Positions 1 to 48,000 of a DNA stretch of 64,000 nt are shown here, piece after piece. This DNA comes from Leucoraja ocellata (lineage: Eukaryota), in assembly GCA_036785375.1 (NCBI GenBank), contig JAWMAR010000023.1, positions 6,324,001 through 6,388,000 on the forward strand, written 5' to 3'. Every line of letters begins with the position of its first letter. Position 1 is the first letter of the stretch. A program made the position numbers.

Positions 1-3000
1 TTGAATCCCACTCCACAAGCTCATCATTTTCATTGGTTCCTCAATCCCCGTCAGAAACACGTTCAACATCTGCACAAGCATCAGTGACAACTGAAACATC
101 ATCGGAATCCCATCCAACTACAGAGGCATCTCGAAACACAATGTCCTCTTCAGAAAGACAGCCAACAGCACATGAATCATCAAGTACAGAGCAGTCAACA
201 CAAACTCATGGAACAACATCAGAAATTCCCTCAGAAAGTGCGTCCTCATCAAAAACCATCGCAACAGCAACAACGTCACCTTTGGTCACTGGGAGCTCAG
301 CGGTAACTTATTCTCAATCATCGCAAATCACATCCTCCAACAACTCTGCAACAGTATCACATCCAATTACAGAAGAATCATCGATCACTGTCTCCTCACC
401 TGAAACACGTCAGACAAATACACAGGAACCTTTTACATCGGCATATCCAAAGACAACACAAGCTTCAACAGAAACTATTTTGACAACAGAAACACATTTA
501 ACAACACCAATCTCAAAGGAAACGGAGCCTCCATCAGTAACCTACCCACGCACAACAGAAGGCTCATCCACAACAGAATTTTCCTCACCAACACCGAATG
601 GTAGACAGGCATCAGCAGCCACATTGTCCACAGCTGAAACACGGTCAGAAACGCAGGAATCAATAAGAACGGAGCATTCAACACAAACCAATGCAAACAC
701 GACACAGAATTCTTCAGAAAGTGTGACTGTTTCAGAACCACATTTTACAACGCAATTTTCAGTCACAACACATTCCTCATCGGAATCATATTCCACATCA
801 GTGAAAGCTTCCTCAACAACAGAACCTTCATCAGAATCACATCCTACAATAGCAGCATCCACGATGGCCACATCCTCTCTGGAAACAACTCCAAAAACCC
901 AGCAATCTTCAAGAACTGAACTATCATCACAATCCAATCCAAGCACAACCAATGTTTCATCAGTCACTGAGTCCTCTTCAGAAACACATTTAACAACATC
1001 AAGTTTATCACAGGTAACTGAGTCCTCAACAGAAACATACTCCAGTTCGACGCCGGTTTCATCAAAAACTGAATCACCCTCAGAGAGCCATCAGACCACA
1101 GAGTTGCCTTCAAGCTCCTTGTCCTCATCAAAAACACATCCAACAACATTACAGGAATCATCATCAACAGAGCTTCCAACAACAGCATATCCAACATTGA
1201 CATCTGCTTCATCTGTTAGTGTGTCCCCATCTGAAACCCACCTAACAACAACACCACTATCATCGCCAACTCAGTCCTCAGCAGAGACCTATCCAACAAT
1301 ACAAACATCCACAAACAAACCTTCATCAGAAACACACCCGACAACAGTGGAATCGTCAAGCACACAGCATTCAACGCAAACACATCAAAGTTCAACGGAA
1401 GTTTCATCAGTCACTGTGTCGCCAGTTGAATCCCACTCCACAAGCTCATCATTTTCATTGGTTACTCAATCCCCGTCAGAAACACGTTCAACATCTGCAC
1501 AAGCATCAGTGACAACTGAAACTTCCTCGGAATCCCATGCAACTACAGAGGCATCTGGAATCACAATGTCCTCTTCAGAAAGACAGCCAACAGCACATGA
1601 ATCATCAAGTACAGAGCAGTCAACACAAACTCATGGAACAACATCAGAAATTCCCTCAGAAAGTGCGTCCTCATCAAAAACCCTCGCAACAGCATCAACG
1701 TCACCTTTGGTCACTGGGAGCTCAGCGGTAACTTATTCTCAATCATCGCAAATCACATCCTCCAACAAATCTGCAACAGTATCACATCCAACTACAGAAG
1801 AATCATCGATCACTGTCTCCTCACCTGAAACACGTCAGACAAATACACAGGAACCTTTTACATCAGCATATCCAAAGACAACACAAGCTTCAACAGAAAC
1901 TATTTTGACAACAGAAACACATTTAACAACACCAATCTCAAAGGAAACGGAGCCTCCTTCAGTAACCTACCCACGCACAACAGAAGGCTTATCAACAACC
2001 AAATTTTCCTCACCAACACCGAATGGTAGACAGGCATCAGCAACCACATTGTCCACAGCTGAAACACAGTCAGAAACGCAGGAATCAACAAGAACGGAGC
2101 ATTCAACACAAACCAATGCAAACACGACACAGAATTCTTCAGAAAGTGTGTCCGTTTCAGAGCCACATTTTACAACGCAATTTTCAGTCACAACACATTC
2201 TTCATCGGAATCATATTCCACATCAGTGAAAGCTTCCTCAACAACAGAACCTTCATCAGAATCACATCCTACAATAGCAGCATCCACGATGGCCACATCC
2301 TCTCTGGAAACAACTACAAAAACCCAGCAATCTTCAAGAACTGAACTATCCAATCCAAGCACAAGCAATGTTTCATCAGTCACTGAGTCCTCTTCAGAAA
2401 AACATTTAACAACATCAAGTTTATCACAGGTAACTGAGTCCTCAACAGAAATATACTCCAGTTCGACCCCGGTTTCATCAAAAACTGAATCACCCTCAGA
2501 GAGCCATCAGACCACAGAGTTGCCTTCAAGCTCCTTGTCCTCATCAAAAACACATCCAACAACATTACAGGAATCATCATCAACAGAGCTTCCAACAACA
2601 GCATATCCAACATTGACATCTGCTTCATCTGTTAGTGTGTCCCCATCTGAAACCTACCTAACAACAACACCACTATCAGCGCCAACTCAGTCCTCAGCAG
2701 AGACCTATCCAACAACACAAACATCCACAAACAAACCTTCATCAGAAACACATCCAACAACAGTGGAGTCGTCAAGCACACAGCATTCAACGCAAGTACA
2801 TCAAAGCTCAACAGAAGTTTCATCAGTCACTGTGTCGCCAGTTGAATCCCACTCCACAAGCTCATCATTTTCATTGGTTCCTCAATCCCCCTCAGAAACA
2901 CGTTCAACATCTGCACAAGCATCAGTGACAACTGAAACATCATCGGAATCCCATCCAACTACAGAGGCATCTCGAAACACAATGTCCTCTTCAGAAAGAC

Positions 3001-45000: not shown

Positions 45001-48000
45001 TCTTTACCAGATGGGCTACAGCAGTCTGAGGAGACATTGGCTCACACCTTTTCAAGGGCAATGAAGAGTAGACTATAAAATACTGGCTTTGCCACTCCCT
45101 AAAAATGAACAAAATCAATTAATCAAAAAATCTGATCTTCCCCTTTTCCTCTCAGACATTCAGATCCTGGCACTCCACAGAAGTGGTACTCGATTGATGA
45201 AGAATATTTCAGGTTTCCACATACAGGTAATTGAATACCACCTTTGCATGCAATATAACCCACAACGTTTACCTTTCATACAAGTATTTTGATAGCATGT
45301 GACATATAAAATAATTGTATTGGTTGTCAGTTTAGACTTTTTGCCTAAATGCCCATCCTCTTTTTTAGAATGTGTCATTATCTTAGCAATGTTTAGCTAC
45401 AGTTTTTAACAAGGTGCTTAGGTTGATTCAAATGTTTCATTAGCTGGCATATTAAGTCAAAAGTCGTAGGTGTCTTCTCAGGTAAAACAAATTTGGATTC
45501 CATCCAAGTCTGATCAGAAATTAGGACCTCTGTGCAGTAGATGGAGCTCAATGGGATATATGGAGAAATGTTCTTAACCCAAAGTGTGTGACCTTCTCGG
45601 GTGAGCAAGCAGGCAAAGATTACAACGGCGTCTGTGTGCATTTAAAATATTTAGGTAATTTAGTTGGAGTTTCCACAACAATAAAAATAAAATATATATT
45701 TTGCATGCCAACTTCCCTGCCATTTCGCTGCCAGGAATCCAGGACAATCCTCAGTATCGACTCAGTGCTGTAAAAGGAGGTGACAACGATGGCAGCAATC
45801 ATTTATTGACAATACTGGAAGAGGGATCCAATTGGCATTTCATTGTGTGTGGGGAAAGTGAGGCTATCATTCAAAGAGTGGACACACCTATGCTTTATAT
45901 CAGGAACAACAAACAATTTGCTTGAGGAACTCAGCAGGTCGAGTAGCATCTGTAGATGTCAAGGAATAGTCAGCGATTTGGGTCAAAACCTTGTATTAGG
46001 ATTCTCTGGCAAATTCTTTGTTGCTTCAGATGCCATCAAACACTTTATATCGCCAGTGCTGCTTGCAACAAAATAAATTGTATTATTATTTCAGTTAGTA
46101 TAGATGGTATTTTAGGACTTCAATGTACCCTGGTCATAGCATATCAACACATATTTCTCTCACATACAAAAACTGCAACTCACTGAACTTGTCTCAAAAT
46201 TTAGAGATTCTGCAGTAAAGCCATTATTGTGTCAAATGTTATTCCCCTCCCATCTCACCCCTCCCCCATCCTCCAGATCTGACTACAGAGTCACTAGCGC
46301 CAAATACTGGCAAAACACTGGGGAGGAGAAAAGGAAGATACAACCTGGAAAATAATCCTTCATTCAATGACGATTTCGATTCTGGTGTCTGGAGACCAAA
46401 CTTAGACAAAGTAGATACAGAGGCTGAGGTAAATTGAATGTTGCGTGCAATGTCATCGTGATCTTATAATCTATTGAGGAAAAATGGTTTATTATTGCCT
46501 TTAATAATGTGGCGATTTGTTTTCTCCCTGCCAGATACGAGCCAAGCGTCCCGAAGTGGTTATGCCGGTTGATCAGTGACAATTGATGCCAATGTTAGAA
46601 CGTCACAGCCCACAGTAGTTTAGACAACTTTGTTCAACATGTATTAACTAAAGGGCATTTAAGCTTCCCAAAACAAAGTTAAAACTATATTTTCAAAATA
46701 CTTTGTTTGTTGCATGAATATTTCTGAGAAATAAGAAAAATTCATACTGCTCAGTAACTCAGTTTAACATTTTTTTGTTTTTACAGTTTTATTGTTCCAG
46801 AAAGCTCAGTAATGATTTGATTGATATCAGTGTCCTATTATTTTCATGTTACAAGGTTTTCTCAGTTCTCAATGAGACAAATAAACAGTGATTCAATGCG
46901 TCTACGAATCTTCAAAACAAGAGGGAGAACGGAACAAGAGTGTTGTTGCATTTGCTCTTCACAATTAATGTTTGAATACAGTAATCTGGTCTATTTTGGG
47001 AATATAGGACAAAAAAAATGACGGAAAATCATTTTACTTCAGTTCTCGAACAAAAAGAATGAATACCTGGGTGGTGCACGAGGGTATATACATGGAACTT
47101 AAGCCAAATCACGGATATAACCTTTAAGAGAGGAAAGATTATATTATAATTACAATAAGACAGTGGGTTAATTGAAAACCTTGATTTAACATTCACATTT
47201 TTAGTCTGTTTAATTTTTGTAATAAACTTTTCAAATATTTTTTGTCAGAAAGCGTTAAGGAAAGTACATCTCTTGACTATTGTCGACTGTGATGTAGTTT
47301 AACTGTACAATAATTGTCCTGTTTATTTAATACCAAACTATTTTACTGACTCATTTACTTATTCTAAATTGAATATGACTGTTTACAGATAAATAAAGAA
47401 TTGTTGTATATGAATTGAATCTGCTTCGTGTGTCCACAAGTATATTGGCTGAATGTTCTCACTTTTAGTGGTAGAAAGTGCTGGGGAATGGTTTATAAAT
47501 AAGGACATTATCTTGACAACTATGACTTTTGAAATGCAAGGGATGAAAGCGAGAAGATAATCATTTGATATCAGTATTTTGGATCAAAGGGAGTTATTGA
47601 TCTGCCAAACTTCCCATTTCTCCAGGAGGCAGTTGATGGAATTCCAAGATGACTTGCAAGTGAGAGACAACATTTGTAGGAAAGAACTGCAGATGCTGGT
47701 TTAAACCAAAGATAGACACAAAAAGATAGAATAATTTAGCAGGTCAGACAGCATCTCCGGAGAAAAGGAATAGACAACGTTTTGGGTCGAGACCCTTCTT
47801 CTGAATTGTCAGTTCCCATGCATGGTTTTGGCATAAATTGGTTTAGGATCAATGTGCATGAGGCAATGAGCACCATGTACATTCATAGAGAAATTAACAA
47901 ATTACATGTTTTAAATGCAGATGTATCTTACTTAAGGAGCATTTTTTTTTTAACTTCAAAACAAGCACAGATCCTAAGAGCAAGAAGTTTTTCTAGCTTC

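What the first reader, a model, noticed from the sequence alone, without database searches (positions are those of the whole stretch)
1..46579. Giant MUC3/17-type membrane mucin with a single >38.9-kb coding exon built from a 475-aa repeat
Seen: an unbroken reading frame of ~13,000 codons whose 5' end is outside the window, then a phase-consistent EGF-SEA-EGF-TM-tail exon chain. Established: this architecture defines MUC3/12/17 glycocalyx mucins, and the largest well-known human exons (TTN ~17 kb, MUC16 ~22 kb) are much shorter; only the longest fully resolved mucin PTS exons are comparable. Inference: a >1.3-MDa apoprotein with an unusually long repeat unit, probably in a cartilaginous fish, likely unannotated or fragmented by gene predictors.
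Basis: partly seen in the sequence, partly recalled or inferred. Interest (0 to 1): 0.75.

Follow-up and report, generated by a model that had tools for sequence, protein, structure and literature searches.

The report
Giant membrane mucin gene, 475-residue repeats
The window holds the 3' part of a real gene for a huge cell-surface mucin, with one coding exon of at least 38.9 kb, but it is a new member of a known kind, about matched or exceeded in size by human MUC3B and MUC12, and its exact family stays open.

Summary
One frame is open from base 3 to 38957 (12,984 codons, 5' end outside the window). It consists of 27 full units of 1425 nt (475 aa) plus a partial unit, 96.5-100% alike. Selection keeps it open: none of 118 distinct variants is a stop (P=0.004), and all indels are multiples of 3. 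Eight further GT-AG exons follow. When splice sites are chosen blind to phase, 7 of 7 junction phases fit. They end at TGA 46577-46579.

The order is PTS, EGF-like, a SEA-like module with the window's only G-S-I-I-I, a 4-Cys cluster, a 6-Cys EGF, TM, and a tail of about 100 aa.

No SEA profile or PDB match was found exon by exon.

MUC3/12/17 membership is not shown. The C-terminus has no class I PDZ motif, and the 3' neighbour is ODAD1-like, not TRIM56/SERPINE1.

The exon size is no record: human MUC3B has 39,267 bp, and MUC12 alleles reach 23,080 aa (PMC9578598, PMC13345508). The organism is unverified.

The parts
3..38354 (+). Tandem array of 27 full PTS units of 1425 nt (475 aa), in frame. 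Units in the middle are homogenised; units toward both ends of the array as seen in the window diverge more.
   Evidence: Differences from consensus per unit are 8-33 at the two ends and 1-6 in units 9-23. The unit has a sub-period of 16-17 aa (z 4-5.7).
38355..38750 (+). Partial 28th unit (38355-38534), followed by a unique Ser/Thr-rich linker.
   Evidence: 180-nt match; translation of the end of exon 1.
38751..38864 (+). First EGF-like Cys-rich domain (8 Cys), encoded at the 3' end of the giant exon.
   Evidence: coordinates. Pfam EGF_2 E=0.21 over 32 of 32 profile positions, below the cut-off. Atlas: EGF clusters, best score 0.86, a lead only.
3..38889 (+). Giant coding exon as far as the window shows it (38,887 nt, 12,962 whole codons). 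The donor is CCG|GTAAGT and the exon leaves phase 1.
39304..39425 (+). Exon 2 (122 nt). Putative start of the SEA-like module, with 2 N-glycosylation sequons.
   Evidence: No Pfam or PDB match.
40445..40509 (+). Exon 3 (65 nt). Putative middle of the SEA-like module.
   Evidence: The acceptor has 19 of 20 pyrimidines upstream.
41781..41983 (+). Exon 4 (203 nt). Holds G-S-I-I-I at 41785-41799, the putative autoproteolysis site, and 3 sequons.
   Evidence: GS[VI]{3} occurs once in 127,996 six-frame residues. No Pfam, PDB or Atlas match.
42465..42627 (+). Exon 5 (163 nt). A 4-Cys cluster followed by the first part of a 6-Cys EGF-like domain; 3 sequons.
43722..43883 (+). Exon 6 (162 nt). End of the second EGF-like domain, a transmembrane helix (43789-43866) and a basic stop-transfer RRKK.
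   Evidence: Weak Pfam TM_ErbB1 match, E=0.0023, below the cut-off.
45156..45226 (+). Exon 7 (71 nt), cytoplasmic. It changes the phase from 2 to 1.
   Evidence: The only candidate passing the thresholds in 43950-46260.
46277..46428 (+). Exon 8 (152 nt), cytoplasmic tail.
46535..46579 (+). Exon 9. Last 14 codons and the stop TGA at 46577-46579; the C-terminus is ..PVDQ.
46880..46885 (+). First AATAAA after the stop codon; a candidate polyadenylation signal.

Best explanation
The window holds the 3' 46.6 kb of a gene for a giant type I membrane mucin of the SEA/EGF group, the group that includes MUC3/12/17 and MUC13.

Shown:
- One exon of at least 38,887 nt encodes a Ser/Thr-rich domain (49.4% S+T, 7.2% P, 9.4% E). 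It is made of 27 or more copies of a 475-aa unit, and that unit is itself a higher-order repeat of a degenerate 16-17-aa motif.
- The frame runs straight into an EGF-like domain. Eight short GT-AG exons then continue it in phase to a stop codon.
- Those exons carry a transmembrane helix and a tail of about 100 aa.

Inferred:
- The PTS domain is densely O-glycosylated and stands as a bottle-brush about 3 um long above an epithelial surface. This scales from the 4073 aa and 'up to 1 um' given for MUC17 in PMC13643018.
- The module between the two Cys-rich domains is a SEA domain that cleaves itself at G|SIII in the ER. The huge outer chain would then stay bound non-covalently to the membrane stub and could be shed under force.
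- The array grows, shrinks and is homogenised by unequal exchange, while selection keeps only the frame and the composition.

The gene cannot be assigned to MUC3/12/17 or to MUC13 on the present evidence.
For: - Frame and array.
- Coding constraint: 0 stops among 118 variants (P=0.004); three distinct indel events of 9, 51 and 3 nt, all multiples of 3; 0 of 20,000 shuffles open; near-neutral amino-acid change (39 synonymous of 118 against 29% expected, p=0.22), as expected for a PTS domain.
- Array shape: the edges diverge and the centre is homogenised, and only one pair of units is identical. PMC13345508 (section 7) describes the same pattern for about half of the human mucins.
- Splicing: all 8 introns are GT-AG. 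7 of 8 donors and 6 of 8 acceptors score above the 95th percentile of intronic GT and AG sites (the scoring weights were recalled and are approximate). 7 of 7 phases fit when the sites are chosen blind to phase.
- Domains: EGF leads; Cys spacing C-x6-C-x5-C-x9-C-x-C-x12-C across exons 5 and 6; a 26-residue hydrophobic helix followed by RRKK; 8 N-glycosylation sequons in exons 2-5 and none in exons 6-9; a single GSIII in the whole window, lying between the two Cys-rich domains.
- S/T content of 49.4% falls within the human mucin range of 25-52% (PMC13345508, section 7).
Against: - No SEA match in Pfam at E up to 10, in PDB sequences at E up to 10, or in the Atlas, when exons were searched one at a time. 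The SEA label therefore rests on position, one motif and N-glycosylation sequons.
- The motif is GSIII, not the published G|S[V/I]VV.
- There is no transcript evidence.
- The 5' end, with the signal peptide and the array start, lies outside the window.
- Copy number could not be checked against reads.
- The exon 2 donor is weak (score 1.1).
- EGF hits are below curated thresholds.
Confidence: 0.8

Rival explanations
1. It is a true orthologue or co-orthologue of the MUC3/12/17 cluster.
For: The PTS domain sits in a single giant exon. Cys-rich domains flank a SEA-like module. G-S-I fits the first three positions of G|S[V/I]VV, a motif that PMC13643018 lists for MUC1/3A/3B/12/16/17 and not for MUC13. 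The exon size is like MUC3B and MUC12 (PMC9578598).
Against: There is no class I PDZ motif at the predicted C-terminus, nor at the two alternative ends I read (and the frames). The 3' neighbour is ODAD1-like, not TRIM56/SERPINE1. There are 8 exons after the PTS exon against 10 in human MUC3A/B (PMC9578598). An extra 4-Cys cluster is present. The repeat is no closer to the human MUC3 17-mer than shuffled motifs are (79 of 500 score as high). Phylogeny was not possible.
Confidence: 0.3
2. It is a MUC13-type gene, or descends from the common ancestor of MUC13 and the MUC3 cluster, with a greatly expanded single-exon PTS domain.
For: Muc13 is the SEA/EGF membrane mucin reported in fishes and chicken, where MUC3/12/17 'seem to be missing' (PMC1552070, passages). 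MUC13 has three EGF-like domains (PMC10551643, passage). Here a 4-Cys cluster precedes the second full EGF and could be a decayed third one.
Against: In chicken and zebrafish the Muc13 PTS domain is split over many exons (PMC1552070); here it is one exon. No HEG-like gene lies in the 17 kb downstream, and the upstream side is unseen. The review does not list MUC13 among the mucins with the G|S cleavage motif (PMC13643018).
Confidence: 0.2
3. The gene is real, but the assembly inflates or misorders the array, so the copy number and exon length are wrong.
For: Units are 96.5-100% alike. Units 18 and 19 are identical, and units 17-23 differ by a few bases only. Arrays like this are hard to assemble (PMC9578598 and PMC13345508 say so for human mucins).
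Against: 26 of the 27 units are distinct sequences. Variants are structured along the array: paired variants at units 2/4 and 22/23, and divergent edges. There is no N and no frame break. None of this excludes a wrong count.
Confidence: 0.12
4. It is a non-coding satellite or a dead gene whose frame is open only because the copies are young.
For: Amino-acid change among the units looks nearly neutral. No expression data are at hand.
Against: 0 of 118 variants is a stop (P=0.004), and all indels are multiples of 3. The frame runs on into a Cys-rich domain, a strong donor and an 8-exon chain that is phase-consistent. Five of the six frames of the unit are closed.
Confidence: 0.03

Closest known systems
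Human MUC3A/MUC3B/MUC12/MUC17 (MUC3 cluster, 7q22)
   Same: - Type I membrane mucin whose PTS domain is in one giant exon. MUC3B has 39,267 bp, MUC12 has 32,428 bp, and MUC12 alleles reach 23,080 aa (PMC9578598, PMC13345508).
- Cys-rich EGF-like domains on both sides of a juxtamembrane module that holds a G-S-hydrophobic motif.
- A short cytoplasmic tail.
- S/T content near the top of the human range.
   Different: - The repeat unit is 475 aa, against 17 aa in MUC3 and about 60 repeats in 4073 aa in MUC17.
- The motif is GSIII, not GS[V/I]VV.
- An extra 4-Cys cluster is present.
- No class I PDZ motif.
- The 3' neighbour is ODAD1-like.
- 8 exons follow the PTS exon, not 10.
- Proline is 7.2% against about 12% in MUC17, and glutamate is 9.4%.
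MUC13
   Same: PTS, EGF-like, SEA, EGF-like, TM and tail in that order. It is the member of this group reported in fishes and birds (PMC1552070).
   Different: MUC13 is small, has three EGF-like domains, lies next to HEG, and in chicken and zebrafish has a multi-exon PTS domain. The review does not list it among the mucins with the G|S cleavage motif (PMC13643018).
MUC1 / MUC16
   Same: SEA-type membrane mucins with the G|S[V/I]VV cleavage motif (PMC13643018). MUC16 also has a very large exon and a long repeat unit; the 156-aa figure is recalled and was not checked here.
   Different: [quoted passage not shown] The MUC16 repeats are themselves SEA domains, not PTS units.

Membership tests
MUC3 cluster (MUC3A/3B/12/17) | [quoted passage not shown] | tested here: met
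   At least 38,887 nt in one open exon, 49.4% S+T.
MUC3 cluster (MUC3A/3B/12/17) | Juxtamembrane SEA domain recognisable as such | tested here: inconclusive
Exon by exon there was no Pfam SEA hit at E up to 10, no PDB hit, and no usable Atlas hit for exon 4. The fragments are 21-67 aa long, too short for a divergent domain.
MUC3 cluster (MUC3A/3B/12/17) | Cleavage motif G|S[V/I]VV | tested here: inconclusive
   GSIII at 41785-41799. The first three positions fit, and the last two are I-I instead of V-V. It is the only GS[VI]{3} in 127,996 six-frame residues. Cleavage itself was not tested.
MUC3 cluster (MUC3A/3B/12/17) | Two EGF-like (Cys-rich) domains flanking the SEA domain | tested here: met
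   An 8-Cys domain at 38751-38864 and a 6-Cys EGF pattern across exons 5 and 6, with an extra 4-Cys cluster. Profile support is weak.
MUC3 cluster (MUC3A/3B/12/17) | Class I PDZ-binding motif at the C-terminus | tested here: not met
   The predicted end is ..PVDQ. Read-through of the exon 8 donor, and skipping of exon 7, give other ends that also lack S/T-x-hydrophobic (frames). A missed terminal exon cannot be excluded.
MUC3 cluster (MUC3A/3B/12/17) | Locus between ACHE (5') and TRIM56-SERPINE1 (3') | tested here: not met
   The next gene on the 3' side, same strand, is of the ODAD1 family (PF21773 E=3e-12; human ODAD1 8j07 E=6e-5). The 5' side lies outside the window.
MUC3 cluster (MUC3A/3B/12/17) | SEA, EGF, TM and tail sequence groups with MUC3/12/17 in a tree | not testable with these tools
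   The protein databases were closed, no reference sequences were at hand, and the joined model was left out.
MUC13 | Three EGF-like domains, one before and two after the SEA domain (PMC10551643) | tested here: inconclusive
   One Cys-rich domain lies before the SEA-like module. After it come a 4-Cys cluster and one full 6-Cys EGF.
MUC13 | Adjacent to HEG, same polarity (PMC1552070) | tested here: inconclusive
   No HEG-like gene lies in the 17 kb on the 3' side. The 5' side is unseen.
MUC13 | In non-mammals the PTS domain is split into one exon per repeat (PMC1552070) | tested here: not met
   27 units lie in one uninterrupted frame.
Membrane mucin (generic) | PTS tandem-repeat domain plus a single TM helix with the tail inside the cell | tested here: met
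   The signal peptide could not be seen because the 5' end is outside the window.

The most novel reading that the evidence does not exclude
A membrane mucin built like the MUC3 cluster proteins, with a single giant PTS exon and a cleavable SEA domain between EGF-like domains, exists in a fish-grade vertebrate, possibly a cartilaginous fish. It lies in a different neighbourhood, beside an ODAD1/CCDC63-type gene. That would move the origin of this design from amphibians (as stated in PMC9578598, Introduction) to the base of jawed vertebrates. It could be a paralogue that tetrapods lost. It would also show that a 475-aa higher-order repeat can carry a glycocalyx mucin of about 1.4 MDa or more.
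Probability: 0.3. Interest if true: 0.6.

Novelty: new member of a known kind. Interest (0 to 1): 0.4.

Why it matters
Membrane mucins of this design build the enterocyte glycocalyx in mammals. Their PTS exons are among the hardest genes to assemble and annotate.

A fully open array of 27 units or more, with a 475-aa higher-order unit, gives a clean example of how such domains evolve. The frame and the composition are kept, the amino-acid sequence is almost free to change, and the centre of the array is homogenised.

If the host proves to be a fish or a shark, the gene bears on when SEA/EGF glycocalyx mucins arose. The papers I read place the MUC3 cluster no earlier than amphibians, and they report MUC3/12/17 as missing in fishes.

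As a size record it does not stand: human MUC3B about matches the part seen here, and the longest MUC12 alleles exceed it.

Tried and rejected
- Tandem Repeats Finder cannot see the array because its longest period is 500. It reported only a 20-nt minisatellite.
- Pfam on nine and then ten exon or ORF translations gave no SEA hit. It gave only sub-threshold EGF_2 and TM-like hits and chance hits such as FRD2 and D_CNTX.
- PDB sequence search with the ORFs that hold exons 2 and 4 gave three unrelated weak hits (E 0.16 or more) and no hits respectively.
- The Atlas gave no usable hit with exon 4.
- Rfam (gathering threshold) and ARAGORN found nothing in 38500-64000.
- The published human MUC3 17-mer against the unit was not better than shuffled motifs (79 of 500 score as high), so I make no claim of repeat homology.
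- The ORF at 58130-58426 gave only chance hits in PDB and Pfam. Its assignment to the ODAD1-like gene is a guess.
- Two LINE-like ORF fragments gave no Pfam family (proteins 8 and 9), so the LINE label rests on recall.
- I considered folding single exons, and co-folding exons as separate chains, and did not run either.
- I did not scan genome contigs, because it holds bacterial and archaeal genomes only.
- Papers PMC2042186 and PMC7075048 are not held.
- Searches for a prior report in cartilaginous fishes found nothing relevant. In teleosts, led only to a common-carp gene named muc17, whose sole predicted domain was Herpes_BLLF1 and not SEA (PMC11414713, passages).

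
Full report
**1. The observation**

The window has no N. One frame on the + strand is open from base 3 to 38957, which is 12,984 codons, with no stop before the window's first base. It is the only frame of 300 aa or more in any of the six frames.

Base composition is uniform and strongly skewed over 1-38000: GC 0.43-0.44, GC skew about -0.39 to -0.42, AT skew +0.27 to +0.32. It changes abruptly after 38 kb.

Autocorrelation peaks at 1425 nt (0.867), against 0.456 or less away from multiples of that period. 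blastn of the first unit against the window finds 27 full units and a 180-nt partial 28th, at 96.6-100% identity. Units are 1425 nt long except units 2 and 4 (-9), units 22 and 23 (-51) and unit 25 (-3). Pairwise identity is 96.5-100%, and only units 18 and 19 are identical.

**2. Is it coding?**

The consensus unit has 0 stops in the reading frame and 10-76 in the other five, and 0 of 20,000 shuffles of the unit are open.

Among 118 distinct variants in the 27 units, 39 are synonymous, 79 are non-synonymous and none is a stop. With 4.6% stops expected, the chance of none is 0.004. The synonymous share is not raised (p=0.22). The three distinct indel events are all multiples of 3.

This is the signature of a PTS domain: frame and composition are kept while the residues are nearly free to change.

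The translated exon is 26.6% S, 22.7% T, 9.4% E and 7.2% P, with 11 D, 8 C and 1 W. The part up to the donor has 12,962 codons, a mass of 1.356 MDa and a pI of 4.9. S+T of 49.4% lies near the top of the human mucin range of about 25-52% (PMC13345508, section 7).

**3. Structure of the array**

Differences from the consensus are 8-33 per unit in units 1-8 and 24-27, and 1-6 in units 9-23. PMC13345508 (section 7) describes the same edge-versus-centre pattern for about half of the human mucins.

The 475-aa unit has an internal period of 16-17 aa, with z = 4-5.7 at lags 16, 17, 33, 50, 67 and 83. It is marked by a recurring S-E-T/S-H motif. The 51-nt deletion in units 22 and 23 equals one such sub-repeat. 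The unit is therefore a higher-order repeat.

Its likeness to the human MUC3 17-mer printed in PMC9578598 is not above that of shuffled motifs (79 of 500 score as high).

**4. The exon chain**

The giant exon ends at CCG|GTAAGT (38889). The next exons are:
- 39304-39425
- 40445-40509
- 41781-41983
- 42465-42627
- 43722-43883
- 45156-45226
- 46277-46428
- 46535-46579, with TGA at 46577-46579

All introns are GT-AG. With rough, recalled weight tables, 7 of 8 donors and 6 of 8 acceptors score above the 95th percentile of all GT and AG sites in 39000-47000. The remaining three lie between the 90th and 95th percentiles.

Exon 7 was the only candidate passing my thresholds between 43950 and 46260.

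I also took the best acceptor and best donor in each of seven ORFs without looking at phase. That gives 7 of 7 phase matches, where chance would give about 5e-4.

Phases were checked by arithmetic only.

Coding sequence in the window adds up to 39,867 nt, or 13,289 codons (lengths).

**5. Domains**

The end of exon 1 carries an 8-Cys EGF-like domain. Pfam EGF_2 gives E=0.21 over the whole 32-position profile, below the cut-off. The Atlas gives EGF clusters with a best score of 0.86, which is a lead only.

Exons 5 and 6 carry a 4-Cys cluster and then a canonical 6-Cys EGF spacing. A 26-residue hydrophobic helix and RRKK follow.

Exons 2-5 hold 8 N-glycosylation sequons, and exons 6-9 hold none. 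That fits an outside/inside split at the helix.

Exons 2-4, between the Cys-rich domains, are where a SEA domain should be. Exon 4 begins with the only GS[VI]{3} in 127,996 six-frame residues of the window.

No SEA match came from any exon-wise search: Pfam at E up to 10, PDB sequences, or the Atlas. The pieces are 21-67 aa long, so this is weak evidence either way. The SEA label stays an inference.

**6. Which family?**

The papers I read give the features of the MUC3 cluster (PMC9578598: Introduction, section 16 and passages; PMC13643018: passages):
- a single-exon PTS domain
- a SEA domain with G|S[V/I]VV
- EGF-like domains on both sides of it
- a class I PDZ motif
- a locus between ACHE and TRIM56-SERPINE1

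Here the first and third are met. The SEA domain and the cleavage motif are inconclusive.

Two features are not met. The predicted C-terminus is ..PVDQ. The next gene on the 3' side is ODAD1-like (PF21773 E=3e-12; human ODAD1 8j07 residues 128-169, E=6e-5).

For MUC13:
- It has three EGF-like domains (PMC10551643, passage).
- It lies beside HEG (PMC1552070, passages).
- Its PTS domain is multi-exon in chicken and zebrafish (PMC1552070, passages).

The third point does not fit here, and the other two remain open.

I therefore file the gene under SEA/EGF-type membrane mucins without a finer name.

**7. Size**

The exon is not a record. Human MUC3B has a 39,267-bp PTS exon (13,089 aa) and MUC12 has 32,428 bp in T2T-CHM13 (PMC9578598, passages). 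MUC12 alleles encode 4,677-23,080 aa and are called the largest human coding exon (PMC13345508, passages). The exon here is at least 38,887 nt and is cut by the window edge.

What is unusual is the unit length. It is 475 aa, against 17 aa in MUC3 and 60 repeats in 4073 aa in MUC17 (PMC9578598, PMC13643018). I recall a 375-aa repeat in the upstream part of human MUC3 (Gum et al. 1997) but could not confirm the number.

**8. Organism**

I do not take the window for human, for these reasons:
- There is no match to the Alu 5' motif within 3 mismatches.
- The repeat differs from the human MUC3 repeat.
- The neighbour is not a gene of the human MUC3 locus.

CpG observed/expected is 0.30-0.36 in non-coding parts, which fits a methylated vertebrate-type genome. 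Introns and flanks hold decayed ORF pieces that I recall as C-termini of CR1/L2-type LINEs common in sharks and rays. Pfam gave them no family, so 'cartilaginous fish' remains a guess.

My searches found no report of such a mucin in cartilaginous fishes. PMC1552070 reports MUC3/12/17 as seemingly missing in fishes, and PMC9578598 places the cluster's origin in amphibians. A common-carp gene is named muc17, but its only predicted domain was Herpes_BLLF1 (PMC11414713, passages).

**9. What stayed unchecked**

- Homologues in protein databases, metagenome contigs and viral contigs were closed.
- Phylogeny, reads and transcripts were not available.
- The 5' flank lies outside the window.
- The supplements of the papers were closed.

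Noticed in passing
window 62756-62980 (+), perhaps also 58130-58429 (+): The next gene downstream, on the same strand, belongs to the ODAD1/CCDC63 family (outer dynein arm docking complex). Evidence: Pfam ODAD1_CC E=3e-12 and human ODAD1 8j07 residues 128-169 at E=6e-5. The coiled-coil ORF at 58130-58429 gave only chance hits.
   Followed up: partly
window 48355-48780, with similar ORF content up to about 48900: A GC-rich minisatellite of period 20 nt with 20.9 copies and 74% matches. It lies in the only GC-rich stretch of the window (GC 0.557 in 48001-50000). CpG observed/expected there is 0.49.
   Followed up: no
window 43978-44306 (+), 49537-49788 (+), 49914-50159 (-), 58643-58969 (-), 59500-59745 (-): Decayed ORF fragments that look like C-terminal parts of CR1/L2-type LINE ORF2 proteins. 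The label is recalled: Pfam found no family for the two fragments tested.
   Followed up: partly
window 55336-55982: A G-rich stretch that reads as runs of Gly, Glu and Arg, followed by a short 15-nt tandem repeat that reads RIETK on the minus strand. GC is 0.461 in 54001-56000, with positive GC skew. It could be the promoter region of the ODAD1-like gene.
   Followed up: no
window 24210-27059 (units 18 and 19): This is the only pair of identical units in the array. Units 17-23 differ from one another by a few bases only. If the assembly has miscounted units, this is the likeliest place.
   Followed up: no
window 3-38889: Glutamate is common (1218 residues, 9.4%) while aspartate is almost absent (11 residues). 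The PTS domain is acidic (pI 4.9) even before any sialylation or sulfation.
   Followed up: no
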